A stretch of 64,000 nt of DNA, taken from Escherichia phage KarlSchell_Bas89. Shown piece after piece: positions 37,819 to 56,914 of the stretch (position 1 is its first letter; each line of letters begins with the position of its first letter). Both the position numbers and the translations under genes were made by a program. The notes beneath the pieces are model-generated. The model was not told where the DNA came from. It saw nothing but the letters and a program-made list of their open reading frames with translations, and ran no database searches. Location: the sequence record PQ850613.1; one strand, given 5' to 3'.

Positions 37819-37834
37819 TGATAATCCTTTTGAA

Positions 37835-40459: not shown

Positions 40460-40474
40460 CACCCTCTCCTTTTA

Positions 40475-40852: not shown

Positions 40853-41107
40853 TTACCCCTTAGGGAAAGGAAGAAGATTTTCTACTGCAACACGATAAAC
40901 TTTTTCTACGTTTTTGTTTTTATAGGAGATAAACTTGCCATCAGCACCACGAAGAATTACATTAGTGCGAGCAGTCTTCGGGTTCTGGGAAATCTGACCA
41001 GCAATGATAGACGCATTAATCGCATTATCAGCGAAGTTAGCAAACTTCCACTTAACCAGTTTATTGGAAATTGAATCGATGATAGTTACAGTTTTTACGA
41101 TAGACAT
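40853..41107 (-). CDS. hypothetical protein
   Basis: 84-aa ORF, adjacent to the upstream stop. Confidence 0.35.
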   Translation of the reverse strand: MSIVKTVTIIDSISNKLVKWKFANFADNAINASIIAGQISQNPKTARTNVILRGADGKFISYKNKNVEKVYRVAVENLLPFPKG

Positions 41108-41166
41108 ATTTTATTACCTAAAGGGTTTGTATAAAAGAAAAGGCCACCCAAGCGGGTAGCCTCTGA

Positions 41167-41661: not shown

Positions 41662-41969
41662 TGACTCAGCGCCCCCTTCCTTCCACCATTTGATTTTCCA
41701 GCTCGATCTCCACTTTTGCCGCCAGCTGAACGATTGCTGCTGACTGTCTCAACACGTAAATTGCTTGACGCATTAGAGCCTCCTGATTTAATGGCTCGTT
41801 TGTGTCCGACATCTTTACCTTTGAGTGCAGATTTTCCAACGCGTTTCTCAACGATGCGACGTGCACGGTGGCGCTGAGCATCTCCGCTCTTACTTCCAAC
41901 TCCCGTTTCACCTCTTGCGATGGCTGTACGTCTTTCTTGTGCATAATCTCTTTTAGCCTTATCAGTCAT
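41658..41969 (-). CDS. hypothetical basic protein (frame choice uncertain)
   Basis: K/R/G/S-rich; overlaps an alternative-frame ORF 41666-41944 on the same strand. Confidence 0.3.
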   Translation of the reverse strand: MTDKAKRDYAQERRTAIARGETGVGSKSGDAQRHRARRIVEKRVGKSALKGKDVGHKRAIKSGGSNASSNLRVETVSSNRSAGGKSGDRAGKSNGGRKGALSQ

Positions 41970-42027
41970 TTACAACTCCTTAATATATCAGTGTACACTA
42001 AGGAGTATACATTATGAGAGGGTAGCT

Positions 42028-42768
42028 TTAGTTGCCACCCTTCTCCATAGCTTTAACGATTGCTTTACAGAAACCAGAACGAACAATGTCATCCGAGTCG
42101 CCATCAACAATATCAGCGAACTCGTACAGATCATGCTCATCAATGAACTCGGTAGCCCAAGTAAGACCACTCTCCCGACCTTTCATATCGTGCTGGTTAG
42201 TGTCACCCATGCAGAACAGCTGGGATGTTTCACCCAAGCGGGTCATGATAGAGAATGCTTCATCTTTGGTTGTATTCTGGAACTCATCCACAATAACAAT
42301 GGCATCATTGAAAGAGCGACCACGGAGGTATTCCAGAGGCACAAACTCAATATTCCCATTACCAAGCTGGCATTCATAAAAACCTTTACCATATCGCTGA
42401 GTAATCACATCAACAATAGGCATCAGGTATGGTTCGAACTTATCACGAAGCCCACCCGGAAGTAACCCAAGAGAATTACCCATGCCAACAGAGGGTCGGC
42501 TAATGATAATCTTTTGAATCTTACCACTCTTCAGTGCATCAATGACAGTAGAGGTGATGACGAATGTCTTACCACAGCCCGCAGGAGCGTCTGTGAACAC
42601 CACTTGTTTAGTCTTGATAGCATTGAGTAGCTCAGATTGAAACTGATTCTGAGGGACCACTGGCTTCGCTAAAACAACCTCTTCATACTCACGCTTACCT
42701 TTCTTGGTGACTAAGGCTTCACGACGTAAATCTTTACGAGATTCTCTACGGGACTGTCTACGGCTCAT
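42028..42768 (-). CDS. phoH: PhoH-like ATPase
   Basis: Walker A 'DAPAGCGKT' and Walker B 'IVIVDEFQN'. Confidence 0.8.
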   Translation of the reverse strand: MSRRQSRRESRKDLRREALVTKKGKREYEEVVLAKPVVPQNQFQSELLNAIKTKQVVFTDAPAGCGKTFVITSTVIDALKSGKIQKIIISRPSVGMGNSLGLLPGGLRDKFEPYLMPIVDVITQRYGKGFYECQLGNGNIEFVPLEYLRGRSFNDAIVIVDEFQNTTKDEAFSIMTRLGETSQLFCMGDTNQHDMKGRESGLTWATEFIDEHDLYEFADIVDGDSDDIVRSGFCKAIVKAMEKGGN

Positions 42769-42950
42769 TTGCGCTCTCCTAGCTCTTCGTAATTAAATAC
42801 AGAGGTTCGACAATCTTTACATATTGTTGTATAGACTCGAACATTAATGAACTTCTTGTTCTTCCCTTTGGTGGGTGAGCCTTTAGCAAGCTCACTGATA
42901 ACTTTAGAACTTAAGTTTAGGTTTGTGCCTTCACATTTAGAGCACTTCAC
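42765..42950 (-). CDS. small zinc-ribbon protein
   Basis: 'CSKCEG...CKDC' pair of CxxC. Confidence 0.35.
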   Translation of the reverse strand: MKCSKCEGTNLNLSSKVISELAKGSPTKGKNKKFINVRVYTTICKDCRTSVFNYEELGERK

Positions 42951-43113
42951 TCAGGCTCACCAACAGTAACTTCCAAAACAACTTGAGAGATGATGTTGTT
43001 GATCTGTTTGATTTGCTCATAAGTCAGTTGCATACCTTTCATTTTCCGAGGGGCATTACTTCGTGCTCTTCGCTGACGATAAAAATTGTTCTTTTTGACA
43101 GAGTGTAAGCTAC

Positions 43114-43344
43114 TCATTTTAAATCCACCAACTCAAGATTCCACCAAACATCTTCCATTCTCGGCGAACGCCCACCGAATGAGTCGTCGCAGTTCTTGTT
43201 GTTTAGGGTGTAATCGATAGAGTAACAAGGCACACCTTCATCTTCTAGCTGCTTTCGAGTCGGTTTATCTTGGAACACAGCTTCGAAGTATGAACCATCT
43301 TGATCATATTCATTTATTTCACGAGTTAGAACCCATACTTTCAT
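43114..43344 (-). CDS. hypothetical protein
   Basis: 76-aa ORF in coding orientation. Confidence 0.3.
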   Translation of the reverse strand: MKVWVLTREINEYDQDGSYFEAVFQDKPTRKQLEDEGVPCYSIDYTLNNKNCDDSFGGRSPRMEDVWWNLELVDLK

Positions 43345-43562
43345 TTCACAACCTTAAACTTAAATGTTGTTGGGTGGTAGTAGTGTAACCTGTTTATTGT
43401 GTGCTTAGTCTCATGATACAGAACACAAGAGTGGCACATTGAATGGTGCAAACAGGTTACTGGATTACGTTTGAAATTGGCAATAAGCTTCCGCTTGTTA
43501 CAGAAGCTACATGTTTTGTGTAAGTCCATTAACTCTCCAGAGTTTTCCTTAGAGCTGACCAA
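43341..43562 (-). CDS. hypothetical Cys/His-rich protein
   Basis: 73-aa ORF with 'CSFC...CLHHSMCHSC'. Confidence 0.3.
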   Translation of the reverse strand: MVSSKENSGELMDLHKTCSFCNKRKLIANFKRNPVTCLHHSMCHSCVLYHETKHTINRLHYYHPTTFKFKVVK

Positions 43563-44185
43563 GAAATTGGGTAGAGTTTAGCCATCTCTTCATCTAATGA
43601 CTGAGCAAACAGTCGAACTTCATACTGAGCATGGGATGATAGTCGTTGACGACACAATTCAAACCAGCCATACAAGCTACCAGTCCAGACCCACTCAGTA
43701 ATCATTCCCTGAGGAAGAACAAAGCGAGCTTGCTCTGGTGCAATAAATTCAATTAGCTTATCATACGCTGCCAGTGAAGCTTCGTATGCATTATTGATCA
43801 GCATTAATGCTTCGGCTCGTTCTCCGTTGACAAGCTGTGTCCCTGAACCTGCATGGAGGTCCGAAGGTCTCGCAAAAATCTCTTTAGGGATGAAGACTTC
43901 AACTGCTCCATCTTTATACCGCCGGGACATTTCGTTCCACGAGAACCCAATTTGGTGTTTTCCAAGCTGTCTCGCAATTGCGATAGGTGCTTTGCATCGG
44001 AAACTGACTTGTGGGTGTCGGAATGGCGTAACATGCTTCTCTCTTGCGAGAAAGTTGATGAGACGTTCATCGCGATCATTTAAATCACCTTCGCGGGTTA
44101 CGCCAAAGGAAACTCGAGCTGCGTTTACTACGCTACGATCACTTCCCATAGCTTCGATTAATGTTGCTTGTAATTGTTCATTCAT
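43529..44185 (-). CDS. thyX: ThyX-family (flavin-dependent thymidylate synthase-like) protein, divergent
   Basis: Region 'HVTPFRHPQVSF...RQLGKHQIGFSWNEMSRRY' aligns by eye to the ThyX RHR-x7-S block, but reads KHQ where RHR is expected. Confidence 0.5.
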   Translation of the reverse strand: MNEQLQATLIEAMGSDRSVVNAARVSFGVTREGDLNDRDERLINFLAREKHVTPFRHPQVSFRCKAPIAIARQLGKHQIGFSWNEMSRRYKDGAVEVFIPKEIFARPSDLHAGSGTQLVNGERAEALMLINNAYEASLAAYDKLIEFIAPEQARFVLPQGMITEWVWTGSLYGWFELCRQRLSSHAQYEVRLFAQSLDEEMAKLYPISWSALRKTLES

Positions 44186-44204
44186 CCGTGAATTTCCTTA
44201 TTTC

Positions 44205-44480
44205 TTATTTAATATCCAAAGCTGTTACTAAGAAAGCTTTCAGGTTTGCTTCAGTCTGCATACCAGATAAGCTATAATGTGCTCCGCTGTTACGATTAGG
44301 CACAATGAAAGCAGGAATGCTTCGTACACCGTACTCGATAGCTCGCTCACGACCGTTGCCTTCGAGGATATTAACCTCTTCAACTTCTAGGTTAAGCTCT
44401 TCAGCTAATTTGTTGAGGGTAGGAGCCATTGCTTTGCAAGGGGCACATTGATTACTATAAAACTTAATAATTTTGTTCAT
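44205..44480 (-). CDS. thioredoxin-like protein
   Basis: CxxC active site 'CAPC' in a ~90-aa thioredoxin-fold-sized protein. Confidence 0.65.
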   Translation of the reverse strand: MNKIIKFYSNQCAPCKAMAPTLNKLAEELNLEVEEVNILEGNGRERAIEYGVRSIPAFIVPNRNSGAHYSLSGMQTEANLKAFLVTALDIK

Positions 44481-44487
44481 AAAAACC

Positions 44488-44742
44488 TTAAGCAGTGATC
44501 AGGTGGAGGGTAAATGGGATGACCACAGAGATAATAACCCAAGCAACAGATGCGATTTGGATTTCATTCTTCTTGTCCGGTGTCTCTTCAATAAGTTTCT
44601 TGCTGCCATAATAAACACCGCCGCCAATGAGAAGTGCCCAAATACTCCAAATGGTTGCTGATAACATATTCAATTCCTTATAAACAAGTTCGCCCCACCT
44701 CGGATTAGGAGACAGGGCGGAGGTTTTAGTATGAGACGTCAC
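44488..44742 (-). CDS. small two-TMD membrane protein
   Basis: Two hydrophobic segments 'LSATIWSIWALLIGGGVYY' and 'IASVAWVIISVVIPFTL'. Confidence 0.4.
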   Translation of the reverse strand: MTSHTKTSALSPNPRWGELVYKELNMLSATIWSIWALLIGGGVYYGSKKLIEETPDKKNEIQIASVAWVIISVVIPFTLHLITA

Positions 44743-45310
44743 TGGAGTGTGACATGTTACTTTTAACGAAGTAGCAATACTTGCCTAACCCTTCGTTGAT
44801 TTCTTGGAGCATGCTCTGGTCAACTGGATACTCGCTCAAACATCCATCGAACTCATCCATTTTGTCAATCATGCACATTAAAGACATGCACATATCAGAG
44901 AGCATACCATCCATATCTAGGTCTGCATTTCCTTCAGAGAACCAAGAGTGTGACAAGTAGTTAGAAGCAGTTGCATCCACCTTAATACAGTGGAAACGCA
45001 TACGTTCAGCTATCCGATCACCTGTCTCACGAGCATAATCTTCCAGCTCATCAAACATTCCATGAACACCCTGAAACCCTGCACCAGATACGTTCCAGTG
45101 ATAATTCTTAGCTTTGATATGCAAGAGTTCTAAGTTAGCTTGAATACCGCATAGAATGTGTTCTAGGCTGTTTCCACTAATCATCCCTTGCATACGCTCT
45201 AAACGGGAGATAGAAGAGTCTGTTTCACGTAATACATCACGGAAAGAAGTCTCTTTTGTTAGAGTTGGTAAGTCGAAAACATTGTGATTAGACATTAGGA
45301 TTTTCTCCAT
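44726..45310 (-). CDS. Dps/ferritin-like protein
   Basis: 'HWNVSGAGFQGVHGMFDELEDYARETGDRIAERM' matches the Dps ferroxidase-site signature. Confidence 0.6.
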   Translation of the reverse strand: MEKILMSNHNVFDLPTLTKETSFRDVLRETDSSISRLERMQGMISGNSLEHILCGIQANLELLHIKAKNYHWNVSGAGFQGVHGMFDELEDYARETGDRIAERMRFHCIKVDATASNYLSHSWFSEGNADLDMDGMLSDMCMSLMCMIDKMDEFDGCLSEYPVDQSMLQEINEGLGKYCYFVKSNMSHSSDVSY

Positions 45311-45617
45311 CAAGTTCTACTGAGTTCGCAACATTGCGTTCCAGATTTGAGATTACCTGTTGGGTGATAACGATGCAGTTCTGTGGGTCAACTGACTTAG
45401 AACGTCCCATCTCAGGGTCATACACCTTAACACGTTTTGCTGTAGAACCAGTTACCTGTAACACCTTGAGAAGATAACCCTGATTCCCGATAGACCATGC
45501 AACAACATCACGATTCTTGATGAATCGACCAAGCATATCACGATGGTAGAACTGCTGCATAACCTTTGATTTATTAATCTCTTCGGCTGGCGGAGCCACT
45601 TTACTCAAATCTAACAT
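45288..45617 (-). CDS. hypothetical protein
   Basis: 109-aa ORF; promoter-like motif upstream. Confidence 0.35.
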   Translation of the reverse strand: MLDLSKVAPPAEEINKSKVMQQFYHRDMLGRFIKNRDVVAWSIGNQGYLLKVLQVTGSTAKRVKVYDPEMGRSKSVDPQNCIVITQQVISNLERNVANSVELDGENPNV

Positions 45618-45654
45618 TTCACTCTCTCCTGTTTAATACAATATTCTTATACTG

Positions 45655-45664
45655 TATATACATT
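45655..45664 (-). promoter_or_regulatory. promoter-like motif AAATGTATATA on the minus strand, ~38 nt upstream of the 45617 gene
   Basis: Plus-strand tatatacattt; 9 of 10 match to TAATGTATAT. Confidence 0.35.
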
Positions 45665-45689
45665 TGAGAGTGATCATATCTACTACCAA

Positions 45690-45902
45690 TTAGTAGTAAA
45701 CATATCCAGAGATATATGAGCCTTTATCCCCACTAAACTCAAACCATCGATGCATGTCAGCACGTTTAACCGTACCGACTAGAGCTTTCATATTCTTCTT
45801 AGCAATACGAGCCTCTTTACGAGTGTTAAACAGTTTGATATTATCTTTACCTAGATGGTGTCCATCTTCCCAAACAACACGAACAGCCCACATCTTTTTC
45901 AT
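45690..45902 (-). CDS. small basic protein, tandem paralog 3 of 3
   Basis: Shares 'K.W.VRV...R.EAR..KK...G.YISG.V.Y' with the two upstream ORFs. Confidence 0.45.
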   Translation of the reverse strand: MKKMWAVRVVWEDGHHLGKDNIKLFNTRKEARIAKKNMKALVGTVKRADMHRWFEFSGDKGSYISGYVYY

Positions 45903-46117
45903 TAGTAATGCACCTTTCCGCTGATATAAATACGGCCTGAGGTATACTCATAGCCCTTGAGAATCTTGACAGAGGTAAGATATCCAGTGTGTAATTCACT
46001 GAACGATTTCTTAAGCCTACGTGCGCCTTCTCGTGTTTTCTGGTAGGTCATGGTCACACCCCCACTTGTCCACTCTGTTCTAACTAACCAAACTCTTTTC
46101 ATAAGACCTGCTCTCAT
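45902..46117 (-). CDS. small basic protein, tandem paralog 2 of 3
   Basis: Same family pattern; stop-start overlaps on both sides. Confidence 0.45.
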   Translation of the reverse strand: MRAGLMKRVWLVRTEWTSGGVTMTYQKTREGARRLKKSFSELHTGYLTSVKILKGYEYTSGRIYISGKVHY

Positions 46118-46314
46118 TAGTAGTACACCTTGCTGCCAGCCATGAAAGCCCCTGTCGAGCTTATAATAACCTTACTGATAGTAACTTTCTTATGCCGGAA
46201 GTATGTCTTCCAGCCCTTTTTACAGATTCGAGCTTCTTGTCGAGTCTTACAAAAGTCAGCCAAAGACAGCTCTTGGGTTTTGTTATCATAAACACGAACA
46301 CACCACTTTTTCAT
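46117..46314 (-). CDS. small basic protein, tandem paralog 1 of 3
   Basis: Same family pattern; ends in YY. Confidence 0.45.
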   Translation of the reverse strand: MKKWCVRVYDNKTQELSLADFCKTRQEARICKKGWKTYFRHKKVTISKVIISSTGAFMAGSKVYY

Positions 46315-46839
46315 TTATCTTTCATCCACATTAAAGGAGAGATGGAGTCTGCTTCTCATAGACTTAGCTAAAAGTTTTGCCTCTTCGAGAGTTTTCACTC
46401 CATATACAGACTCACGTTTACCATCTTTTTGAACAGAGACACAGAACGTCCCACCTTTCTCTTGGTAGACATTCTTAATCCCTAGCTTGTTATCAACTCT
46501 GGTCTTAGCATTCTGACTATTTTCAGAGTGAGAACACTTTCTCAGGTTAATTTCTTCTAGATTCCCTCTGTTACCATCAGCGTGATCTATTTGATATTCA
46601 TCCGATAAATCCTCACCAGTATAAAGAACAAAAAGAATCCTATGATTATGGACACGAACTCCTCCTAAGGGAATTTGGTAATATCCATCTTTTGTGAGTT
46701 TTCCAGCAGGTTTCCCTGCTATATCATTAGCAAATTTACTAGGCTTCCTTTTCCAAGAAAGCCCTGACGGGGATGACATGTCTATGTTAAAAAGATCAAA
46801 CACTTCATCATAGCATATCAGCATGGTTTGTTCCACCAA
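46315..46839 (-). CDS. HNH homing endonuclease with AP2-like domain
   Basis: 'HNHRILFVLYTGEDLSDEYQIDHADGNRGNLEEINLR' plus 'GIKNVYQEKGGTFCVSVQKDGKRESVYGVKTLEEA'. Confidence 0.8.
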   Translation of the reverse strand: MVEQTMLICYDEVFDLFNIDMSSPSGLSWKRKPSKFANDIAGKPAGKLTKDGYYQIPLGGVRVHNHRILFVLYTGEDLSDEYQIDHADGNRGNLEEINLRKCSHSENSQNAKTRVDNKLGIKNVYQEKGGTFCVSVQKDGKRESVYGVKTLEEAKLLAKSMRSRLHLSFNVDER

Positions 46840-47362
46840 AAGCTTTTGTTGGCCCTTGTTGGTTATTGTATGAACCTTTAGTTGCGTAACTATCTTCTTC
46901 AGAGGAGGAGTGTTTAAAGAACTCCATTTGACCGATACGCATTCCCGGCTTAATTAGCAAAGAGTGATGCTGTAGGACGTTCTTGAATTCCATAGTAAGT
47001 TGGCTCCCATGCCACCCACCGTCAGCATGACCAGCGTGCATGTGCTCTAAGAAGCAACGACCAACAGTGGACCGTAACATGAAGTCACAACTAATATTAT
47101 CTGGCAGGTTGAATGTCTCCACTGTATGAGCCAAGAAGCACTCACCCGGTTTGATAACTAAACCTTCTTCTGGAATCATAACCTCGTTGAAGTTAGGAGA
47201 CTCTTTAGCGGAGATATCAACAACCCCATTAGCTGCTCCTTCCATCAGAACACGGTCTCCAATACGAACATCAATACTGGAGGAGTTAACAGCTGAGTGA
47301 GGTGCATCAATAACACCATCATCGATTAGTTTATGTAATTCCGGACTTCCTAATAAACTCAT
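46808..47362 (-). CDS. dcd: dCTP deaminase (dUTPase superfamily)
   Basis: Collinear with E. coli Dcd by eye: 'IDVRIG', 'KPGECFLAHTVE', 'AGHADGGWHGSQLTMEF', 'IKPGMRIGQMEF'. Confidence 0.8.
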   Translation of the reverse strand: MSLLGSPELHKLIDDGVIDAPHSAVNSSSIDVRIGDRVLMEGAANGVVDISAKESPNFNEVMIPEEGLVIKPGECFLAHTVETFNLPDNISCDFMLRSTVGRCFLEHMHAGHADGGWHGSQLTMEFKNVLQHHSLLIKPGMRIGQMEFFKHSSSEEDSYATKGSYNNQQGPTKAFGGTNHADML

Positions 47363-47376
47363 TCTTATTCCTTGTA

Positions 47377-48657
47377 TTAATCTGCGATACTATCGCTTTC
47401 ATCAACCCAGACTGTACCATTAACCTGTCTTAGACGACGAGCTGACGCTTCGTTAATAGAGTTAACCCCTGCTGTGCGAGGGTTTGTGTACCAAGGTCGA
47501 GCTATGGTGCCCTCTCGAATCACTTGGTTCGTTTCGACATGCCATCTGTTTGATACCATGTTGGCTTCAAAGTTACCACCCGCTCCACCACTGATAGGCA
47601 CAGCTTGAGCTGGTTGGTTTACTCGGTTAGTTCCTGCCCCAAAGGATGCTGCAAATTCAGACATACGTGCATCAAATGCAGAACGAACACGCTGAGTAGG
47701 TGATATATCATTTCGTGTATCTACTGCACGAGGCATAGCCCAAGTATCATCTGTTGAGATATCAGGGGTAGGCTCTTGCTCTAGAGGTTGAAGATTAGCT
47801 GTCCATTGACTGTTCAGTATACGATAGAAATCTGCACCATAACCACTTCGGATAACATCTTCTCTGATACCAAAAAAGCGACTAATATCTCCACCGATTC
47901 GGGCCAACTTATCGTTGTATGTAGATACAGATACCCCACTTTCTGTTACTAAGTCAGAAACACGACTTGTTGTAAGTGGTGAGTTATTCCAACAATAATA
48001 GTCAGTAATGTGGCCGTCATACCCAAAGTATGCAACCTCTGCATCAGGCCATTTCTTGTGGACATATGCCACTTCGCGAGTAGAACAAACAGGGATTGCG
48101 CCTGTTTCAGTCATTGCATAGAAGCCGTCAGAAGAGAACCAAAGTGAGTCTAGTGCTAAGAATCCACGACACACACTTGGGAAAGTAGCAGCCAGCGCCC
48201 CAAGTGAGGTGGGTTCGTTGAACATTAACTGAACCTTTGCACCCTGATAATCAATCTCTAGGATATCTACAAAATTCAAAGAAGACCCAGGGGCATATTG
48301 ACTATTACTTCGTCCAATATCCTGCTCAACAAGAAGAGATCTTGTTTCAACACCATGAGCCTCTGCCCACTCTTTGAAATCTTCAAGGAACAAGCGAGCC
48401 TTAGCTCGCCACATCGACCGATCAGTTACGGATTGTCTCGGCAATCCGCCCTCTGTAGTGATGAGGAAGATATCAATGTCATGGGGCTCACGCGTCTGGA
48501 AGATTGCATCCCTAACAGCACCACCTGCAATGATAGGGTACACACCATCAGGGATTAAACGGTTTGCAATCAACTCGTTAATTAACGTAAGACCAGACAT
48601 AAGCTGCGGACTGTCATCAATCCGACGACGAATTAGTGCATTAGGGATATTATACAT
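47377..48657 (-). CDS. pol-beta-superfamily nucleotidyltransferase (CCA-adding / poly(A) polymerase-like head) with a long unknown C-terminal region
   Basis: 'IIAGGAVRDAIF...PHDIDIF' matches the GGxVRD...DxD nucleotidyltransferase signature; directly abuts the exonuclease gene. Confidence 0.5.
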   Translation of the reverse strand: MYNIPNALIRRRIDDSPQLMSGLTLINELIANRLIPDGVYPIIAGGAVRDAIFQTREPHDIDIFLITTEGGLPRQSVTDRSMWRAKARLFLEDFKEWAEAHGVETRSLLVEQDIGRSNSQYAPGSSLNFVDILEIDYQGAKVQLMFNEPTSLGALAATFPSVCRGFLALDSLWFSSDGFYAMTETGAIPVCSTREVAYVHKKWPDAEVAYFGYDGHITDYYCWNNSPLTTSRVSDLVTESGVSVSTYNDKLARIGGDISRFFGIREDVIRSGYGADFYRILNSQWTANLQPLEQEPTPDISTDDTWAMPRAVDTRNDISPTQRVRSAFDARMSEFAASFGAGTNRVNQPAQAVPISGGAGGNFEANMVSNRWHVETNQVIREGTIARPWYTNPRTAGVNSINEASARRLRQVNGTVWVDESDSIAD

Positions 48658-49206
48658 TTACATTTTCCAATATAAAGATGGGGGGTCATTTGGGTCAAAG
48701 TTTGCAATATGACAAAGATATTTATAAACCTTAACCGTTAAGTTTACATCCTGTTCACAATAAGTAAACATGTCCTCTGTAAAGGCATCCCATGCTTCTT
48801 CCTGTTCACCGTAATCACCCTTAAGCTCTTCTAAGAACTCACCCCATTGCTTTAAGCCATGACCTCTTGGGCCATGTCTAGGGTCGCCTTTCGGATACTC
48901 AGGACTGTCACCAATACGGTCAGGTTTAAGATACCGACTCAGACATAAAGTGTCTAGGACGTTGAATTTGTAATCAATCAAATCAGGGTACATCTTCTTC
49001 AGAGCACATAAGTCGAAGTCAATAACGTTATGACCTACAACAACATCAGCCTCTGTAAGTTTCTTGATACCCTCTTCAATCTGGTGAGGACGAAATCCCC
49101 ACCGTTCACCAGTTGCTATATCAAAGATAAAGATACACCATACGTTTGTGATATCGTCGTACAGTGCATCACTCTCAATATCAAATGCGTAGACTTTCTT
49201 TACCAC
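48658..49206 (-). CDS. 3'-5' exonuclease (DnaQ-like; homolog of the T7 gp5 N-terminal exo domain) as a separate gene
   Basis: Exo I 'FDIESD', Exo II '[16 protein letters not shown]', 'YCEQDVNLT'; 182 aa; GTG start with GGAG RBS. Confidence 0.75.
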
Positions 49207-50990
49207 GGGCTTTTCTCTCCATCTTGAGCAAGAAGTGATGCTGCATCCTCTCCATTTGTCAGCGAGAATGGATTTTCTTCATCAATTTCATGTTCTTCAC
49301 GCTCAAGCAGTCGTCCCGTCTCTCCTACATATTTCGTATAGCACACCCCTGTTTGTCCATAGTTACGCTCTTTGAGGAGTCGTATAATGGAGAGGTTCTT
49401 AGCCAGACCATCTGCTTGTTTGTCACGTTCAAAACCGATGATACATTGACACCAACGCATAAGAGAACGAGAGCCAGTAAACTGTACCTCTCGAACCTGA
49501 CCACCTTCTTCATGAGGTGCACCACCTGCCGGAGCATTGAGGTGAGATAATACGAATGCTGTGAAGTTTAATTCTTGACACATACCAGCAAGCTCGGAAG
49601 CAATCTTACTGATTTCAGTGTTAATCTCTGAAGGTGTTAAATGAGACACCAGAGCGGTAATATTATCAAGGATGATAAACTTACACTGGTTTTCAACAAC
49701 CCAGAAACGGATACACTGTTTAATGTCGGCCCATTCATTCTGACCAAAGTTATCATAGAGGAAGAATTTATCTGCATATCGAAGAGCTTCGTTACGCAAT
49801 GTATCTTCATCATACTCAACATCAGGTCTGTGGAAAGGGATAGATGCTGACTTACCTGCAATGTTCTTAACGGACATTCCGACCTTCTCTTCCAAGAAGA
49901 ATCCACCACCATTAAAACCATGCTCAAGACAAAGCCAAGCAACCAGTTCATGTGCAATCAGTGTTTTACCAGAGCCTACACCGCCACCAATTGCTACCAT
50001 CTCTCCCCAACGAATACCGTAGGTCATCTCATTAAGAGTCTTCCACGGATATGGGATACCCCACTCTGCTTTCTTCAGAGCATCATCTAAGCAATCAAAA
50101 ACAGTTACAGCACCAGCTGGAGATTCACGCTTCGCTGAATATTTAAGAATGTTAAACAACTCCTGACCACGACCAGAGAGAAGCATATCATTCGCATCTT
50201 TAAGTTCTTTCTCAACACCATTGTACTGGAAAGAACCTTTAGGAATACGAGCAAACTTCACATGTGGGAACAGAGCACGCCCTTTGGTAAGAGCAATCTC
50301 ACCAGCATCATCGTTGTCCATACAGAGGACAACCTCTTCAAAACCATTCAAGAACTCACGGTTGCGAGATAGAACGGAAGAGATTGACCCTGCACCGAAT
50401 GGTAAAGAGACACACGCTGGTTTAATGTTTGTTGCATTTGTAAAAGCTGTAAGAACGTGGAAGCCAGACATACAAGACAAGGGGTCTTCAAAGATGAAGA
50501 GCTTCTTATTGTACACATCTCCACGTTTAGCCTGTGCCATACCAAACAAATCAGCTTCTTTCACACTACCGATGTAATAAAACTTTTTACTATCGAGCAG
50601 TTTAACCTCATAACCGACAATGTTTCCATCACGTTCACGAGGGAAGAAGTAACTATCCGGTGTCTGACCATCAGTTTGACTGAGACCTATACGACACTCA
50701 AAACGCTCTGATACAGCTTTAGGGATTAATCGACGAGTGAGTTCTCCTTGAGGTAACTCCAAGCAATCATCCAAGACTTCTCGAAGTTCTTCAGGGGACA
50801 GCTCTTTCTTTTCATTTGGTGTAGGTGTCGTGCCTTTCTCAAAGACTTCGTAATTACCACACCGGTTGCAACTTCCAAAAGTTTCTTCAGTTTCTTCGTT
50901 ATGAAACAGAATCATATGATTGCCGGTCTTGTCCCTACCATGTGACTGGCATTCTTTACAAGCGCAATCTCCAATAATCTTTTTAGACAT
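49200..50990 (-). CDS. primase-helicase (T7 gp4-like); start trimmed to ATG 50990
   Basis: Zinc ribbon '[10 protein letters not shown]...CNRCG'; helicase Walker A 'GGGVGSGKT'; 'IILDNITA'; 'HLNAPAGG'. Confidence 0.85.
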
Positions 50991-51474
50991 ATAATCTCCA
51001 TCCGTGAGTTTGTTTATATTCTCCGCTATATAACCTGTAAAGGGCGGCAGAATCAACACCAGAAAGCCTTGAAAGCTGTCTTATACTATCACCTGAAACA
51101 ATTTCCCCATTACTAGAGACGATCGACATACTCTTACCAAAAGAATATATCTGATTGTACTCAGAAGTGCACCACTCTAGATTCTCTACCAGATTATTAT
51201 CTGGCTGTTCATCTATATGATTAACTTGAGGTAAGTTTTCAGGGTTAGGAAGGAAAGCTATAGCTACTAATCTGTGTACACTTCTAGTACATTTAACACC
51301 TTCAGAGTTTGTCATTCTCACGTAAAGATATTTACGACTATAATGTAGAGACTTGATAGCTGGCTCTGTGGGAGGTTTTCTCCCACGTCCAGTAATTCTC
51401 CAAGATCTTATACGTCCAAAGGATGAAACCTCATACCCCGGAAAATCTGTAATTGGTTTCCATTCTTCTGACAT
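50983..51474 (-). CDS. HNH homing endonuclease
   Basis: 'HRLVAIAFLPNPENLPQVNHIDEQPDNNLVENLEW'. Confidence 0.8.
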   Translation of the reverse strand: MSEEWKPITDFPGYEVSSFGRIRSWRITGRGRKPPTEPAIKSLHYSRKYLYVRMTNSEGVKCTRSVHRLVAIAFLPNPENLPQVNHIDEQPDNNLVENLEWCTSEYNQIYSFGKSMSIVSSNGEIVSGDSIRQLSRLSGVDSAALYRLYSGEYKQTHGWRLYV

Positions 51475-51511
51475 GCTCTATCCTCCTTGGATTCTCCTTG
51501 AGCAAACTACC

Positions 51512-51721
51512 TTACTTATAAAAACTTCGAATCATGTCCCAGATTTCTTCCTGCTGGACCCTAAAGAAAGCTAAACGTGTCGATGTACGTTCAATAAATT
51601 CTTCACTATGCTTTTCTCTATCTAGCATACTGACAAGCTTTTCATATTTATTGATCTTCCATCGCATTTTTAAATAGTCTGATTCTAGTGTCCTTAACCT
51701 CTGACACTCAATCAAATCCAT
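51512..51721 (-). CDS. hypothetical protein
   Basis: 69-aa ORF abutting the AIG2-like gene. Confidence 0.3.
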   Translation of the reverse strand: MDLIECQRLRTLESDYLKMRWKINKYEKLVSMLDREKHSEEFIERTSTRLAFFRVQQEEIWDMIRSFYK

Positions 51722-52140
51722 CAGTTATCCTCTGACAGATAAAGAGACCAGTCACCAGATTCAACCAGTTCATCTTGCTCTTCATCAATGTGATAAATCC
51801 AAGCAGTGACAGTTTCACCACTATCCAGAACCACTTCGATAGGTGTACGCTTATAGAAAGTGTGTGGGTTGTCATTACCACGATGCCCTTCCAGCATGTC
51901 ATAAGCACCCTCAACACCGTCCATGTCAGTTTTAAACACTTCAACACGAACAGGTTTACCGTTACTGCTGTGTTCCAGAGAAACACTTGGGAAGTATGAA
52001 CCACCGTAGCGGTACAGGTTGTAGTTTTCTTTAGTGAAACCTTCACCAATCGATTCAGCACCTGCACGAGCATTCACTCGGAAGTTAGCCTGACCAGTAC
52101 GAAGAGAACCATAAGTTGCTACATAAATTACTTCTGACAT
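51721..52140 (-). CDS. gamma-glutamyl cyclotransferase-like (AIG2/GGCT fold) protein
   Basis: N-terminal 'YVATYGSLRTGQANF' matches the GGCT/AIG2 'YGSL' motif; ~140 aa. Confidence 0.6.
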   Translation of the reverse strand: MSEVIYVATYGSLRTGQANFRVNARAGAESIGEGFTKENYNLYRYGGSYFPSVSLEHSSNGKPVRVEVFKTDMDGVEGAYDMLEGHRGNDNPHTFYKRTPIEVVLDSGETVTAWIYHIDEEQDELVESGDWSLYLSEDN

Positions 52141-52211
52141 TTTAAATACCTTTGTTCATTGTTTAGTTAATCCGAACTAGCCTCCTCTTTCGAAGAAGCT
52201 AGAGCAGATTG

Positions 52212-52394
52212 CTATGCTGTGAAGTTTTTGATTACACCGCAAATAACATCTGTTTCAAACGTACCCACCAGAACATCGTCTCGGTAGAAGTTAATCGCCT
52301 TACCATCTCGGTTAAAGTGATCTGCTTCAATGAGCATAGATTGTACCTGACCATCTGGAGTGGAGGTTCGAAAGATGACGTTATACTGACTCAT
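52212..52394 (-). CDS. hypothetical protein
   Basis: 60-aa ORF inside the cluster. Confidence 0.3.
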   Translation of the reverse strand: MSQYNVIFRTSTPDGQVQSMLIEADHFNRDGKAINFYRDDVLVGTFETDVICGVIKNFTA

Positions 52395-52633
52395 AAAGAA
52401 GTTACTCCCTTATCTTCTTGGGCGATAGAGATGATACGACTCACACACTGCATTGAGTACTCATCACCACGCTTTAGGAACGTTACGATAGCAGAGAATT
52501 GATTACCAATCATCCGCTCATTTGTAATACCGAACTCTTTGCAGAGTTCTTTCAGTTTGCTACGAGAACCAATAATCAGAGGTTCTTTTTCTTCAGTCAT
52601 TCCACGACTAATCAAATCTTCAATAGACAACAT
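52391..52633 (-). CDS. hypothetical protein
   Basis: 80-aa ORF, stop-start coupled. Confidence 0.3.
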   Translation of the reverse strand: MLSIEDLISRGMTEEKEPLIIGSRSKLKELCKEFGITNERMIGNQFSAIVTFLKRGDEYSMQCVSRIISIAQEDKGVTSL

Positions 52634-52656
52634 AATTCCATTCCTTGGGGGTTTAA

Positions 52657-53874
52657 TTAAAAGTTTACTGCTTCACCATCAACGGTAGTTACTGATGCAA
52701 GACGACGAACACGGCCAATCTGTTCACGACTGATTGGAGTATTCCAACCAGAGCGATAGAAGTTGCGACCACAGAAGAACACAACAACATTAGAAGCAAT
52801 CCGTCCGTAGTTACGATCAGGGTGATTGATGTTAGCAAGATAATAACCACGGGTCAAGTTTGCATTTTCGTTGATATGCCGAGCATTTGGTGCAGTTGTT
52901 TCAGCTTGCATCATTTCAGGAACATCTTCTACGATAGGCTCAACCGTAGGTTCATCACCAGCTAAAGCAAAGTTCTCATCAGCAGCCTCTTCTGCATCAT
53001 CTTCCAGCTCCACAGTTTCCTGAATAACTGGCAGAGGGTATGCTACACGATACTCAGGGTTTTGACCACGGAGAGATTCAACATACTGCAAGAAGTTGTG
53101 CTGGTAAGTTTCCAGAGTTGTACCAGTCAGGCCCGGAGCGGTATTAACTTCTAACACCCACGCTTCCTCACCTTTACTGATAAGATCAACAGCACCAAAG
53201 TTAAGACCGAGTGCTTGTACTGCTTTGTGCGCTTGAATTAGAACCTGATCAGGTGGTGAATCATTAAAAGAGTTGGAATAAACCCAACCAGTGTGGTGAT
53301 TACGAACATCTTCACGATAGTCAGGGTTATCACGATACCCATTACGACGAATCTTCTTCTGGACGTAAGTAATAACACCTTCAAAAACATGCACACGCCA
53401 TTCACGACGTGGACCAGTGATTGCTTTTGTATACAGAGGAGCCTCAGCAACACCCTCACGAGGAAGACGAACAGTGATGCCTTCACCAGAGTGACCATTA
53501 AGTACACCACGTTCGTAAACAATACTGTTTTGGTTCCAGTTAAGTGCTTCATCTCGGTTAGTGGTATACTCAACAGTCTTGACTTCCGCAAGACGCATGG
53601 CATTGAAAGCTGCAACCTTGTTAGCCGCACGATTCAATGCTGCTACGTTGTTCAGAACCGTTGCACCTTCGAAGAAGGATTCTTGATAACGACGGTTTCC
53701 ATAGTTGATAATCACGTCACCAGAACGAGCACGGAATCGGCTGGTTCCATCAGACAGAAGAGTCATTGCGTTGGCATTGATTCGGTTGTCACGGAGATGT
53801 TGATTCAAGCTGGATACCAGAGCATTAACAGAATCAGAAGGGCCATAAGGGAGAACACGGATACGAGTAGTCAT
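52657..53874 (-). CDS. ATP-grasp ligase (RimK/GshB-like)
   Basis: 'FGAVDLISKGEEAWVLEVNTAPGLTG' matches the ATP-grasp C-terminal motif; acidic linker region. Confidence 0.7.
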   Translation of the reverse strand: MTTRIRVLPYGPSDSVNALVSSLNQHLRDNRINANAMTLLSDGTSRFRARSGDVIINYGNRRYQESFFEGATVLNNVAALNRAANKVAAFNAMRLAEVKTVEYTTNRDEALNWNQNSIVYERGVLNGHSGEGITVRLPREGVAEAPLYTKAITGPRREWRVHVFEGVITYVQKKIRRNGYRDNPDYREDVRNHHTGWVYSNSFNDSPPDQVLIQAHKAVQALGLNFGAVDLISKGEEAWVLEVNTAPGLTGTTLETYQHNFLQYVESLRGQNPEYRVAYPLPVIQETVELEDDAEEAADENFALAGDEPTVEPIVEDVPEMMQAETTAPNARHINENANLTRGYYLANINHPDRNYGRIASNVVVFFCGRNFYRSGWNTPISREQIGRVRRLASVTTVDGEAVNF

Positions 53875-53876
53875 TT

Positions 53877-54110
53877 TTAGATACCTTTAAGTTTAAGAAT
53901 TTCGTTGCGAGTACGTTGGATACGTTCTTCAAGAGTGTGATAATCAAAGATGCACATCTCTTCTGCTTCATCAGAAGGTGCATCCATTAAACCCATAGCA
54001 ATCGGATACACCTTTCGCTGTTCCGTTGTCATGCCCTGTAGCCGGAGTCGTTGATACTCCAGCAGGGTAATTTTCGGCTTGTTAGTTTCCTTGCTTGACA
54101 TGAGGCTCAA
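53877..54110 (-). CDS. hypothetical protein
   Basis: 77-aa ORF. Confidence 0.3.
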   Translation of the reverse strand: MSLMSSKETNKPKITLLEYQRLRLQGMTTEQRKVYPIAMGLMDAPSDEAEEMCIFDYHTLEERIQRTRNEILKLKGI

Positions 54111-54315
54111 CCTTGATACCTTTCAGTTTCACATAGTCAGCCAGCACGTTGTTAATAACTGTTGGGAAAGGAATCTCAACAGGTGCATTAACTAACCCAC
54201 CAATACCCTCTTGCATCCACTTCTGGATTGCACGAAGGTTATCACATCCTGTGCTTGTCATTGGAATACGGCGAGTGGTTACAACGTTATCCAACATCAT
54301 CTTACGAATTTCCAA
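54082..54315 (-). CDS. hypothetical protein
   Basis: 77-aa ORF. Confidence 0.3.
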   Translation of the reverse strand: MEIRKMMLDNVVTTRRIPMTSTGCDNLRAIQKWMQEGIGGLVNAPVEIPFPTVINNVLADYVKLKGIKVEPHVKQGN

Positions 54316-54811: not shown

Positions 54812-54821
54812 TCTACACCTC

Positions 54822-56840: not shown

Positions 56841-56914
56841 TTTCTAATCCACCTGAAGGGTAAACCCTTTCATCTAATTAACCTTTAGTTGTGCCCCTTT
56901 CGAGGCACCCATTG

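What the first reader, a model, noticed from the sequence alone, without database searches (positions are those of the whole stretch)
47377..48657. Pol-beta-type nucleotidyltransferase encoded directly downstream of the exonuclease gene
The GGAVRD...DxD head is shared by CCA-adding enzymes and poly(A) polymerases; the ~300-aa C-terminal region is unrecognised. Possible roles include tRNA 3'-end repair against host anticodon or acceptor-stem nucleases, or nucleotide addition to nucleic-acid ends during replication. Both are speculative.
Basis: partly seen in the sequence, partly recalled or inferred. Interest (0 to 1): 0.5.

Follow-up and report, generated by a model that had tools for sequence, protein, structure and literature searches.

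The report
Gad2-like nucleotidyltransferase in phage replication module
This is a real phage gene for a small nucleotide-transferring enzyme whose closest studied relative is Gad2, a phage protein that disarms the bacterial Gabija defence, so it more likely acts around replicating phage DNA than repairs tRNA, but its actual job is untested.

Summary
Window 47377..48657 (minus strand) is a 426-aa gene whose ATG directly follows the stop of the DNA-polymerase 3'-5' exonuclease-subunit gene. It carries GGAVRD(45-50) and DxD(60-62).

The window is a phiEco32-like podophage, genus Nieuwekanaalvirus, closest to EP335. RefSeq and PHROG 12715 already call the gene 'nucleotidyltransferase'.

New here:
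- The 'unrecognised 300 aa' is a folded core (aa 1-~292) plus a disordered, lineage-specific tail (293-426).
- The core is a divergent member of the phage mini-nucleotidyltransferase clade that Pfam names Gad2 (PF26128). Profile-profile E is 1e-23. That clade branches from the class II CCA/poly(A)-polymerase head.
- CCA-enzyme motifs B (RRD) and D (EDxxR) and the tRNA-binding domains are missing or replaced, so it is not a CCA-adding enzyme.
- The gene keeps its slot (helicase, exo, NTase, dCTP deaminase) in relatives down to about 30% identity. Related mini-enzymes recur beside primase/helicase and DNA polymerase genes in other podophages.
- It is the most divergent gene of the block, yet under purifying selection.

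Function is inferred only. Most likely it is an active transferase serving or protecting replicating phage DNA, as Gad2 may. tRNA repair is unlikely. It is a new variant of a known kind, of moderate interest.

The parts
47377..48657 (-). Complete CDS of the nucleotidyltransferase (426 aa plus stop)
   Evidence: ORF list. PHROG 12715 E=1.6e-152. 93% identical to EP335 YP_010672738 'nucleotidyltransferase'. dN/dS 0.16.
47782..48657 (-). Folded core, aa 1-292: N-terminal helices, Pol-beta head, helical neck-like part, and a conserved aromatic motif (W285)
   Evidence: AF2 pLDDT is mostly 84-94 up to aa ~230, 74-89 over aa 231-270, and ~60 over aa 271-290. The core is conserved in all 38 family sequences. 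hhalign of aa 25-226 against the mini-NTase profile gives 99.6% probability, E=1e-23.
48466..48537 (-). Motif A, aa 41-64: PIIAGGAVRDAIFQTREPHDIDIF (nucleotide-binding GG/R, metal carboxylates D60 and D62)
   Evidence: G45, G46, R49, D50, D60, D62 and F64 are invariant in 38 sequences. Aligns to CCA-enzyme motif A and to Gad2 IIAGGA..DVDIYF.
48223..48273 (-). Beta-hairpin aa 129-145 (FVDILEIDYQGAKVQLM) carrying the predicted third carboxylate D131, plus invariant Q143 and M145
   Evidence: Position 131 is D (27) or E (11) in all 38 sequences, whereas E134 is kept in only 25 of 38. Chaining the hhalign alignments by hand places D131 opposite the Glu in PAP I's IIEVATFR strand. Treating that Glu as catalytic rests on my own knowledge of class II enzymes.
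48169..48183 (-). FPxxC motif, aa 159-163, in the place of CCA-enzyme motif B (RRDFTINA) and of mini-NTase/Gad2 FDFxxC
   Evidence: P160 is invariant and F159 is F or M. Motif correspondence comes from hhalign of the mini-NTase profile against E. coli Cca, PcnB and Gad2.
48046..48078 (-). R[DE]xxYxxKKxP motif, aa 194-204 (REVAYVHKKWP), in the place of CCA-enzyme motif D (EDxxRxxR)
   Evidence: Y198 and K202 are invariant, position 195 is always D or E, and R194 is kept in 31 of 38. A subset of mini-NTases and PhiCHU gp46 share KK[FYW]P[DE].
47380..47781 (-). Disordered, lineage-specific C-terminal tail, aa 293-426, with a short helical motif (aa 327-343, AFDARMSEFAASFGAGT)
   Evidence: Block-mean pLDDT is 24-34 from aa 291 to the end. 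Alignment occupancy falls to 20-55%, and the tail is absent from members of 274-290 aa. The motif recurs only in some subgroups. dN/dS is 0.37 in the tail against 0.115 in the core.
48658..49206 (-). Context: PolA 3'-5' exonuclease subunit ('DNA polymerase part I'), whose stop abuts the NTase start
   Evidence: PF01612 E=6e-6 and phrog_38876 E=3e-70. Junction ATG TAA ATG.
46808..47362 (-). Context: dCTP deaminase-like gene, the invariable downstream neighbour
   Evidence: PF22769 E=1.3e-31. The same neighbour is present in SU10, IME267, IMEP8, L005, L007, L016 and L018.
49200..51059 (-). Context: T7 gp4-like primase/helicase, heading the helicase, exo, NTase gene string
   Evidence: phrog_239 E=1e-176 and DnaB_C.

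Best explanation
The gene encodes a catalytically competent, minimal Pol-beta-type nucleotidyltransferase. It belongs to a divergent branch of the phage 'mini-NTase' clade that Pfam calls Gad2 (PF26128). That clade is an offshoot of the class II CCA/poly(A)-polymerase head-plus-neck.

Shown:
- The fold is a class II-type nucleotidyltransferase head.
- Motif A and a conserved acidic residue at the predicted third-carboxylate position are present.
- The CCA-type specificity motifs are replaced.
- The C-terminal tail is disordered.
- The gene holds a fixed slot directly behind the polymerase exonuclease-subunit gene in every relative examined.

Inferred: it is made together with the replication proteins and transfers a nucleotide (NMP or dNMP) onto an acceptor tied to replicating phage DNA. 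That acceptor could be a DNA or primer 3' end, a nick, or a nucleotide-derived molecule.

Most likely purpose (analogy only): to keep replicating phage DNA safe from host nuclease-based immunity. This is what the only tested relative, Gad2, does against Gabija. tRNA repair is the less likely purpose.
For: Identity and activity:
- The AF2 core is confident.
- D60 and D62 are invariant, position 131 is always D or E, and R49, Q143, Y198 and K202 are invariant in 38 sequences.
- Purifying selection: core dN/dS 0.115.

Gad2 link:
- Family core against the mini-NTase profile: 99.6% probability, E=1e-23, 173 columns.
- Those mini-NTases carry PF26128 'Gad2' in the precomputed Pfam tables.
- Mini-NTase profile against Gad2 of SPbetaL7: E=1.9e-13. 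Against a 40-member Gad2 family alignment: E=3.8e-17.
- Three family members have weak PF26128 hits on record.
- Both Gad2 and the window protein hit phrog_1614.
- Gad2 knockout sensitises SPbetaL7 to Gabija (bioRxiv 10.1101/2023.05.01.538930).

DNA-replication context:
- The order helicase, exo, NTase, dCTP deaminase is kept in relatives down to about 30% identity.
- Mini-NTases sit between or next to primase/helicase and DNA polymerase genes in Arno160, BOESR1, BB8, Curvibacter phage P26059A and contig L021. In PhiCHU one sits beside the 5'-3' exonuclease gene.

Host-interaction flavour:
- The NTase is 37% identical to its SU10 counterpart, while the flanking helicase is 93% and the exo subunit 86%.
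- The tail is variable and disordered.
- Gordonclarkvirinae resist the RM systems tested in the BASEL study (PMC11990801). This window does contain EcoRI, EcoRV, EcoKI and EcoP1 sites.
Against: - No biochemical or genetic data exist for this family.
- Gad2's own mechanism is unknown (PMC12904381).
- The direct profile comparison with the Gad2 family proper is only moderate (70% probability, E=4e-5, 110 columns). The Gad2 C-terminal domain has no counterpart here.
- The window protein itself has no PF26128 hit on record.
- Universal, syntenic, vertically inherited presence is more typical of a core function than of an accessory anti-defence gene.
- Recent dN/dS (0.16) shows no positive selection. 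The large between-genus divergence may reflect old allele exchange, as with the neighbouring dCTP deaminase gene.
- Location among replication genes does not prove a DNA substrate. My own recollection is that T7 keeps host-takeover genes in the same region.
- The core is acidic (pI 4.9) and has no recognisable nucleic-acid-binding domain.
- The sister LUZ24-like phages have the same split polymerase without an NTase in this slot. The enzyme is therefore not an obligatory replisome part.
Confidence: 0.4

Rival explanations
1. Replisome enzyme proper. It would add nucleotides without a template to DNA or primer 3' ends as a routine step of phage DNA replication or end processing. It would be docked to the polymerase or exonuclease through its tail, with no defence-related role.
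For: - The start codon abuts the stop of the exonuclease-subunit gene.
- In Arno160 a mini-NTase gene overlaps the DNA polymerase gene start.
- The position is fixed across the whole lineage.
- The gene is a core gene, present in 97 of about 99 related phage records.
- The disordered tail carries short conserved motifs that could be docking peptides.
Against: - LUZ24-like and UFV-P2-like phages run the same helicase plus split PolA without an NTase in this place.
- 37% identity beside 86-93% identical replisome partners is odd for a tightly integrated subunit.
- The tail is absent in many members.
- There is no DNA-binding domain and the core is acidic.
- The apparent C-terminal aromatic 'tip' is not statistically enriched.
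Confidence: 0.2
2. tRNA 3'-end repair (CCA addition), or RNA tailing (polyadenylation), to counter host tRNA-targeting nucleases or to destabilise host RNA.
For: - Motif A is almost identical to that of CCA-adding enzymes (IAGGAVRD..PHDIDI).
- The best solved-structure matches are PAP I and CCA-adding enzymes.
- EP335 carries one tRNA-Arg gene.
Against: - PF01743 scores 13.6 bits against a cut-off of 23, covering only aa 43-65.
- Motif B (RRD) is replaced by xxFP with an invariant proline. The Arg of motif D (EDxxR) is replaced by an invariant Tyr.
- No PolyA_pol_RNAbd domain or body/tail domains: the C-terminus is disordered and dispensable in short members.
- The core is acidic.
- No tRNA gene lies in the window.
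- The gene neighbourhood is DNA metabolism throughout.
Confidence: 0.1
3. DNA or precursor modification enzyme. Together with the adjacent dCTP deaminase-like protein it would help install a covalent DNA modification that explains the RM resistance of these phages. This is the suggestion made in the BASEL paper.
For: - Gordonclarkvirinae resist the tested RM systems, and the authors point to exactly this gene pair (PMC11990801).
- The window does contain EcoRI (13), EcoRV (33), EcoKI (8) and EcoP1 (102) sites, so site loss does not explain that resistance.
- The NTase and deaminase genes are always adjacent.
- One mini-NTase lies next to a GTP cyclohydrolase I gene. By my own recollection, that enzyme is used in deazaguanine DNA-modification pathways.
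Against: - No known DNA hypermodification pathway uses a Pol-beta-fold transferase (my own knowledge).
- The phage encodes ThyX and a normal dTMP route.
- Strong avoidance of GC-rich palindromes, and of CCWGG (5 observed against 134 expected), implies the DNA is exposed to restriction.
- The NTase and deaminase alleles do not co-vary: 93% against 56% identity to EP335.
- No modification has been reported.
Confidence: 0.1
4. Nucleotidylation of a non-nucleic-acid acceptor. It would AMPylate or UMPylate a host or phage protein, or synthesise a nucleotide-derived small molecule that interferes with host signalling or nucleotide-sensing immunity.
For: - It is a minimal acidic enzyme without nucleic-acid-binding domains.
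- Gad2's mechanism is unknown and could be of this kind.
Against: The closest folds are RNA 3'-end enzymes. Nothing in the neighbourhood suggests a protein or signalling target. No cyclase-type features were tested or seen.
Confidence: 0.15

Closest known systems
Gad2 (Gabija anti-defence 2) of Bacillus phage SPbetaL7, and the Pfam family PF26128 built around its N-terminal nucleotidyltransferase domain
   Same: - Phage-encoded, with the motif IIAGGA-x(8-9)-D-h-D-I-[FY]-F, then a strand with an invariant Gln (vQhM), then F-[DP]-x-x-C.
- The relationship is transitive but strong. Window family to PF26128-annotated mini-NTases: E=1e-23. Those mini-NTases to the Gad2 family: E=3.8e-17.
- Weak PF26128 hits are on record for three family members.
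   Different: - The direct comparison is only moderate (70% probability, E=4e-5).
- Pairwise identity is confined to 25 residues.
- Gad2's C-terminal domain (about aa 230-400) has no counterpart here. This protein has a disordered tail instead.
- FDF is replaced by FP.
- This family keeps an acidic residue at position 131, where Gad2 has none on that strand (my reading of the sequences).
- Gad2 sits in an anti-defence locus of a temperate Bacillus phage. This gene sits in the replication operon of a virulent coliphage.
- Anti-Gabija activity is untested here.
Phage mini-nucleotidyltransferases of about 200 aa (PHROG 1614). Examples: Pectobacterium phage Arno160 orf20, Ralstonia phage BOESR1, Bordetella phage BB8 p30, Aeromonas phage phiAS7 H6UK10, and the N-terminal domain of Pseudomonas phage PhiCHU gp46
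   Same: - Homologous over aa 25-226 (E=1e-23).
- The window protein hits phrog_1614 at E=5e-7.
- BFVD fold matches to phiAS7 and Vibrio phage VEN proteins (TM 0.5-0.6 on the target).
- A subgroup shares the KK[FYW]P[DE] motif.
- Same kind of location, next to primase/helicase and DNA polymerase genes.
   Different: - This family has an extra helical insertion (aa ~70-125), a further ~70 folded residues ending in an aromatic motif, and, in this phage, a 134-aa disordered tail.
- None of the mini-NTases has a known function.
Class II CCA-adding enzymes and bacterial poly(A) polymerase I (Pfam PF01743 head domain)
   Same: - Pol-beta fold with GGAVRD...DxD.
- The neck-start motif is recognisably related (D-x-x-[R to Y]-x-x-[R to K]).
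   Different: - Below the Pfam threshold.
- Motif B arginines and Asp are lost, and the base-templating Arg of motif D is replaced by Tyr.
- No body/tail RNA-binding domains.
- About 290 aa of fold, against 370-470 aa in those enzymes.
- DNA-metabolism gene context.

Membership tests
Class II CCA-adding enzyme / poly(A) polymerase (PF01743 plus RNA-binding domains) | Motif A: GGxVRD followed by DxD, on a Pol-beta head fold | tested here: met
Class II CCA-adding enzyme / poly(A) polymerase (PF01743 plus RNA-binding domains) | Score at or above Pfam's gathering threshold for PF01743 (23 bits) | tested here: not met
   13.6 bits, E=0.09, covering aa 43-65 only. The family members tested reach at most 21.5 bits.
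Class II CCA-adding enzyme / poly(A) polymerase (PF01743 plus RNA-binding domains) | Motif B 'RRD' (ribose and triphosphate contacts; role taken from my knowledge of the family) | tested here: not met
   The corresponding segment is xxF-P160-xx-C, with an invariant Pro in place of the Asp and no conserved arginines.
Class II CCA-adding enzyme / poly(A) polymerase (PF01743 plus RNA-binding domains) | Motif D 'EDxxR' (amino-acid template for C/A selection; role taken from my knowledge of the family) | tested here: not met
   The segment reads R-[DE]195-x-x-Y198-x-x-K-K202. The acidic residue is kept, but the Arg is replaced by an invariant Tyr. The alignment is by profile and by hand, not by superposition.
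Class II CCA-adding enzyme / poly(A) polymerase (PF01743 plus RNA-binding domains) | Alpha-helical body/tail domains that hold the tRNA or RNA (for example PF12627) | tested here: not met
   No Pfam hit beyond aa 65. Block-mean pLDDT is 24-34 from aa 291 to the end. Some members end at 274-290 aa.
Class II CCA-adding enzyme / poly(A) polymerase (PF01743 plus RNA-binding domains) | CCA or poly(A) addition to RNA 3' ends | not testable with these tools
   Needs an enzyme assay.
Gad2-like nucleotidyltransferase (Pfam PF26128) | Significant match to the family profile | tested here: inconclusive
   The local Pfam copy appears to lack PF26128, because Gad2 itself gets no hit. The window protein has no PF26128 hit on record. 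Three homologues have weak hits. Profile-profile against PF26128-annotated mini-NTases gives E=1e-23. Against the Gad2 family proper it gives 70% probability, E=4e-5.
Gad2-like nucleotidyltransferase (Pfam PF26128) | Shared motifs: IIAGGA..D-h-D-I-F, Gln strand (vQhM), F-D-F-x-x-C | tested here: met
   The first two are present and invariant (Q143 in 100%). The third is present as F-P-x-x-C.
Gad2-like nucleotidyltransferase (Pfam PF26128) | Gad2-type C-terminal domain (aa ~230-400 of Gad2) | tested here: not met
   No alignment beyond Gad2 aa 128-170 in any comparison.
Gad2-like nucleotidyltransferase (Pfam PF26128) | Inhibition of Gabija defence | not testable with these tools
   Needs phage genetics. 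Gabija is not mentioned in the BASEL paper's main text.
PHROG 12715 'nucleotidyltransferase' (Gordonclarkvirinae orthologue group) | Full-length profile match and conserved position between the exonuclease-subunit and dCTP deaminase genes | tested here: met
   E=1.6e-152 over aa 1-425. Synteny in EP335, SU10, IME267, IMEP8, L005, L007, L016 and L018.
Family X DNA polymerase / terminal transferase | Palm plus fingers/thumb and 8-kDa or BRCT domains; close fold match | tested here: not met

The most novel reading that the evidence does not exclude
Gad2-like mini-nucleotidyltransferases may form a widespread class of phage enzymes, previously unrecognised as such, that is built into the replication module beside primase/helicase and DNA polymerase genes. 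They would chemically mark or extend DNA ends, nicks or replication intermediates, or make a nucleotide decoy, so that end- or nucleotide-sensing nucleases such as Gabija cannot act. In Gordonclarkvirinae this has become a fixed core gene and would contribute to their unusual resistance to host immunity. If so, this coliphage family, now plateable on E. coli K-12 through the BASEL collection, would be the tractable system for solving Gad2's unknown mechanism.
Probability: 0.2. Interest if true: 0.75.

Novelty: new variant of a known kind. Interest (0 to 1): 0.45.

Why it matters
The gene is a core, always-present enzyme of a common group of therapeutic-candidate coliphages, the phiEco32/SU10-like phages. 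Its function is unknown.

Tying it to the Gad2 clade does three things:
- It gives Gad2, an anti-Gabija protein of unknown mechanism, several hundred relatives with a consistent replication-module address.
- It replaces the misleading 'CCA-adding enzyme domain' label with tested statements about which CCA-enzyme features are absent.
- It offers a concrete candidate, with catalytic residues to mutate (D60, D62, D131, Y198, K202), for the unexplained resistance of these phages to restriction and other defences.

If it turns out to be an ordinary accessory transferase, little is lost. The gene is already annotated as a nucleotidyltransferase.

Tried and rejected
- **C-terminal aromatic 'tip'.** Many family members seem to end in F, W or Y, like SSB or T7 gp2.5 tails. 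The count is 19 of 38, against 14.5 +/- 2.8 in shuffles, and 154 of 2000 shuffles reach it. Not significant, so dropped.
- **Positive selection.** dN/dS against EP335 is 0.16 (core 0.115, tail 0.37), which is purifying selection. The large between-genus divergence cannot be called an arms-race signature.
- **Restriction-site loss as the cause of RM resistance.** EcoRI, EcoRV, EcoKI and EcoP1 sites are present at about the expected numbers.
- **Promoter and terminator scan of 43-53 kb.** No excess over shuffles and nothing that isolates the gene.
- **Direct Pfam test against PF26128.** The local Pfam copy appears to lack the model, because Gad2 itself gives no hit. I used profile-profile comparisons and the precomputed Pfam labels instead.
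- **Single-sequence comparisons with Gad2, Cca and PcnB.** These recover only motif A.
- **Sequence search of solved structures.** Only motif A of CCA-adding enzymes matches, at E~0.04-0.06.
- **Scan of IMG/VR with family patterns.** Only 6 loci, nothing new.
- **Word-indexed protein search.** Only relatives of at least 73% identity were found until an alignment of divergent members was used.
- **tRNA scan of the window.** None found.
- **Literature.** No functional study of this protein in phiEco32, SU10, 7-11 or LUZ24 papers.
Full report
**1. The observation.** The upstream ORF (48658..49206) is the 3'-5' exonuclease subunit of a family-A DNA polymerase (PF01612 E=6e-6; phrog_38876 E=3e-70). 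The junction reads ...ATG TAA ATG... with no spacer. The next gene, a dCTP deaminase-like protein (PF22769, E=1e-31), starts 14 nt after the stop, behind an AAGGAA Shine-Dalgarno-like sequence. GGAVRD is at residues 45-50 and D-I-D at 60-62. The gene is real. It matches PHROG 12715 ('nucleotidyltransferase') at E=1.6e-152. It is 93% and 91% identical to orthologues in Escherichia phages EP335 and KBNP1711. It evolves under purifying selection, with dN/dS 0.16 against EP335.

**2. What the window is.** The window is a Gordonclarkvirinae (phiEco32-like, C3-morphotype) podophage of the genus Nieuwekanaalvirus. It aligns to EP335 at 95.7% identity over 83% of a 20-kb stretch. RefSeq already names the gene 'nucleotidyltransferase'. 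[quoted passage not shown] The DNA polymerase of these phages is split. The exonuclease subunit lies next to the primase/helicase gene, and the polymerase domain lies about 8 kb downstream.

**3. Anatomy.**
- An AlphaFold2 model built on a 17-sequence alignment is confident over the core. Its pLDDT is mostly 84-94 up to aa ~230, then 74-89 to aa 270, then ~60 to aa 290. Block means are 24-34 from residue 291 to the end.
- An alignment of 38 family members drawn from phage genomes and metagenomes shows a conserved core of about 290 residues, ending in an aromatic motif ([WYF]285).
- The tail beyond the core is 0 to 206 residues long and absent from the shortest members of 274-290 aa.
- So the '~300 unrecognised residues' are about 230 further residues of folded enzyme plus a 134-residue disordered, lineage-specific tail.
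- Invariant residues in all 38 sequences are G45, G46, R49, D50, D60, D62, F64, Y121, I132, Q143, P160, Y198 and K202. Positions 131 and 195 are always Asp or Glu.
- Chaining the profile alignments by hand places D131 opposite the Glu in PAP I's IIEVATFR strand. Treating that Glu as catalytic rests on my own knowledge. I therefore take D60, D62 and D131 as the predicted metal-binding triad.

**4. Fold and family.**
- By sequence, only motif A is recognisable. PF01743 scores 13.6 bits against a cut-off of 23, and CCA-adding enzymes in the PDB match at E~0.04-0.06 over about 20 residues.
- An exhaustive profile search of 1.84 billion representative proteins finds only 31 clusters at E<1e-10, so the family is small.
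- Below those clusters lies a twilight zone of ~200-aa proteins. Several of these reach PF01743 weakly, belong to PHROG 1614, and carry PF26128 'Gad2' in the precomputed Pfam tables.

**5. Profile-profile comparisons, run locally with hhalign.**

| Comparison | Probability | E-value | Extent |
|---|---|---|---|
| Window family core vs mini-NTases | 99.6% | 1e-23 | 173 columns, aa 25-226 |
| Mini-NTases vs Gad2 of SPbetaL7 | 98% | 1.9e-13 | 153 columns |
| Mini-NTases vs 40-member Gad2 family | 98.9% | 3.8e-17 | 143 columns |
| Mini-NTases vs E. coli Cca | 89% | 2e-6 | 138 columns |
| Mini-NTases vs E. coli PcnB | 91% | 1e-6 | 146 columns |
| Window family vs Gad2 family, direct | 70% | 4e-5 | 110 columns |

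The protein is therefore a divergent branch of the Gad2-like mini-nucleotidyltransferase clade. That clade is itself a reduced offshoot of the class II head-plus-neck.

**6. Why it is not a CCA-adding enzyme.**
- Where CCA/PAP enzymes have motif B (RRDFTINA), the mini-NTases and Gad2 have FDFxxC. This family has F-P160-x-x-C, with an invariant proline and no conserved arginines.
- Where CCA/PAP enzymes have motif D (E-D-x-x-R-x-x-R), this family has R-[DE]-x-x-Y198-x-x-K-K202-x-P. The roles of motifs B and D, in ribose recognition and base templating, are taken from my knowledge of the class II enzymes.
- There are no body or tail RNA-binding domains.
- The core is acidic, with pI 4.9.
- No tRNA gene lies in the window.

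Each of these is a defining feature that was tested and not met. tRNA CCA repair is therefore an unlikely function.

**7. Gene neighbourhood.**
- The order primase/helicase, exonuclease subunit, NTase, (occasional HNH), dCTP deaminase is kept in SU10, IME267 and IMEP8. It is also kept in metagenomic relatives whose NTase is only about 30% identical.
- In every one of these loci, thioredoxin/glutaredoxin and ThyX genes lie further downstream.
- Of about 99 related phage records, 97 carry the gene.
- The sister lineage, LUZ24-like and UFV-P2-like Pseudomonas phages, shares the upstream amidoligase, GATase and GGACT genes, the helicase, and the split polymerase. It has only small ORFs between the two polymerase parts.
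- In that lineage a Gad2-like domain protein (PhiCHU gp46, 326 aa; E=1e-9 to the mini-NTase profile) sits just after the 5'-3' exonuclease gene. The enzyme is thus not an obligatory replisome subunit, but it stays within the DNA-metabolism operon.
- Mini-NTases elsewhere show the same habit:
  - Arno160: ligase, NTase, DNA polymerase, with overlapping gene ends.
  - BOESR1 and BB8: primase/helicase, NTase, DNA polymerase.
  - Curvibacter phage P26059A: NTase, HNH, primase/helicase, HNH, PolB.
  - Contig L021: PolA, two small ORFs, NTase.
- Exceptions are Gad2 itself, in an anti-defence locus, and one contig where the neighbours are an AAA_28 protein and GTP cyclohydrolase I.

**8. Evolutionary behaviour.** Identity of each window gene to its counterpart in four relatives:

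| Gene | SU10 | IME267 | L005 | L018 |
|---|---|---|---|---|
| Primase/helicase | 93% | 91% | 84% | 78% |
| Exo subunit | 86% | 80% | 72% | 61% |
| NTase | 37% | 41% | 35% | 30% |
| dCTP deaminase | 59% | 56% | 55% | 60% |

- The NTase is the most divergent gene of the block, even though its catalytic residues never change.
- Within the genus it is under purifying selection, with core dN/dS 0.115 and tail 0.37.
- I therefore read the pattern as old, deeply diverged alleles held in a conserved frame, not as demonstrated positive selection.
- The neighbouring deaminase gene shows outright allele replacement. It is 56% identical to the EP335 copy, while the other compared genes in the block are 93-99.5% identical.

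**9. What it most likely does.**
- Shown: a conserved, apparently active minimal nucleotidyltransferase of the Gad2-like clade. Its start codon abuts the stop of the polymerase exonuclease-subunit gene.
- Inferred: it is produced with the replication machinery and nucleotidylates an acceptor connected with replicating phage DNA.
- Analogy only: the only experimentally studied relative is Gad2. Deleting Gad2 makes SPbetaL7 sensitive to Gabija, and a Gad2 homologue protects SPbeta in trans (10.1101/2023.05.01.538930). Its mechanism was still unknown in a February 2026 review (PMC12904381).
- The BASEL study found Gordonclarkvirinae to be remarkably resistant to RM systems with no known protective mechanism. 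It singled out this gene and the deaminase as candidates for a DNA modification (PMC11990801). The word Gabija does not occur in that paper's main text.
- The window does contain EcoRI, EcoRV, EcoKI and EcoP1 sites, so site loss is not the explanation.
- I put about 0.4 on a DNA-linked, protective or counter-defence role.
- I put 0.2 on a purely replicative end-processing role, 0.15 on a non-nucleic-acid acceptor, 0.1 on DNA modification and 0.1 on tRNA or RNA tailing.

**10. Novelty and verdict.** The gene is already annotated, and one paper has remarked on it. The additions here are:
- the domain dissection;
- the tested absence of CCA-enzyme determinants;
- the homology to the Gad2/PF26128 clade;
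- the recurring replication-module address of that clade;
- the divergence pattern.

I class it as a new variant of a known kind, of moderate interest. Function remains to be shown. The residues to mutate and the assays to run are listed under next steps.

Noticed in passing
window 37838..40459 (minus strand); insert 38315..39097: The family-A DNA polymerase gene is interrupted inside motif B (..KTFIYAFN | YGAG..). Exon 1 is 40459..39098 and exon 2 is 38314..37838, relative to the uninterrupted EP335 gene. The ~783-nt insert matches Rfam Intron_gpI (48.1 bits against a gathering score of 50, E=5.8e-11). It carries a 176-aa ORF (38447..38977) with a Cys-rich N-terminus that gave no Pfam hit. 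I read this as a probable group I intron with a homing endonuclease; the endonuclease assignment is by eye only.
   Followed up: partly
window 46808..47362 (minus strand): The dCTP deaminase-like gene is only 56% identical to the EP335 copy, with saturated dS, while the other compared genes in the block are 93-99.5% identical. It is about equally distant (55-60%) from the SU10, IME267 and metagenomic copies. This looks like replacement by a deeply divergent allele.
   Followed up: partly
window 46315..46839 and 50983..51474 (minus strand): Two free-standing HNH homing-endonuclease genes flank the block. They are HNH_3 (E=2e-8) and NUMOD4 plus HNH_3. The first overlaps the 3' end of the deaminase gene. 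Neither is annotated at the corresponding positions in EP335. An HNH gene also sits between the NTase and deaminase genes in metagenomic relative L005.
   Followed up: partly
whole window 1..64000: There is strong avoidance of GC-rich 6-bp palindromes. BamHI, PstI, KpnI, SacI, NcoI, CACGTG and others have 0 sites against 6-11 expected. CCWGG occurs 5 times against 134 expected, and GATC 133 times against 240 expected. A/T-rich sites (EcoRV, HindIII, HpaI) are at or above expectation. CAGCAG is 4-fold over-represented.
   Followed up: no
window 45690..46314 (minus strand): Three tandem paralogous small ORFs of 70, 71 and 65 aa, 34-37% identical to each other. All have the pattern MKK.W.VR...KTR.EAR..KK...G.V.Y, and none has a Pfam hit. 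EP335 and SU10 have the same string of 65-71-aa genes.
   Followed up: partly
window ~51700..60000, and loci L005, L016, L018, L025, L026: A cluster of glutamine amidotransferase, COOH-NH2 ligase/amidoligase, ATP-grasp ('S6 glutaminyl transferase') and gamma-glutamyl cyclotransferase genes lies directly upstream of the primase/helicase gene. It is shared between phiEco32-like coliphages and LUZ24-like/UFV-P2-like Pseudomonas phages. The two groups thus appear to share an ancestral early/replication module with a split PolA.
   Followed up: partly
window 44726..45313 (minus strand): A Dps/ferritin-like protein (PF00210, E=4e-8) is conserved in the replication and nucleotide-metabolism block. 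It is annotated variously as 'DNA binding protein' or, probably wrongly, 'integrase' in related genomes.
   Followed up: no
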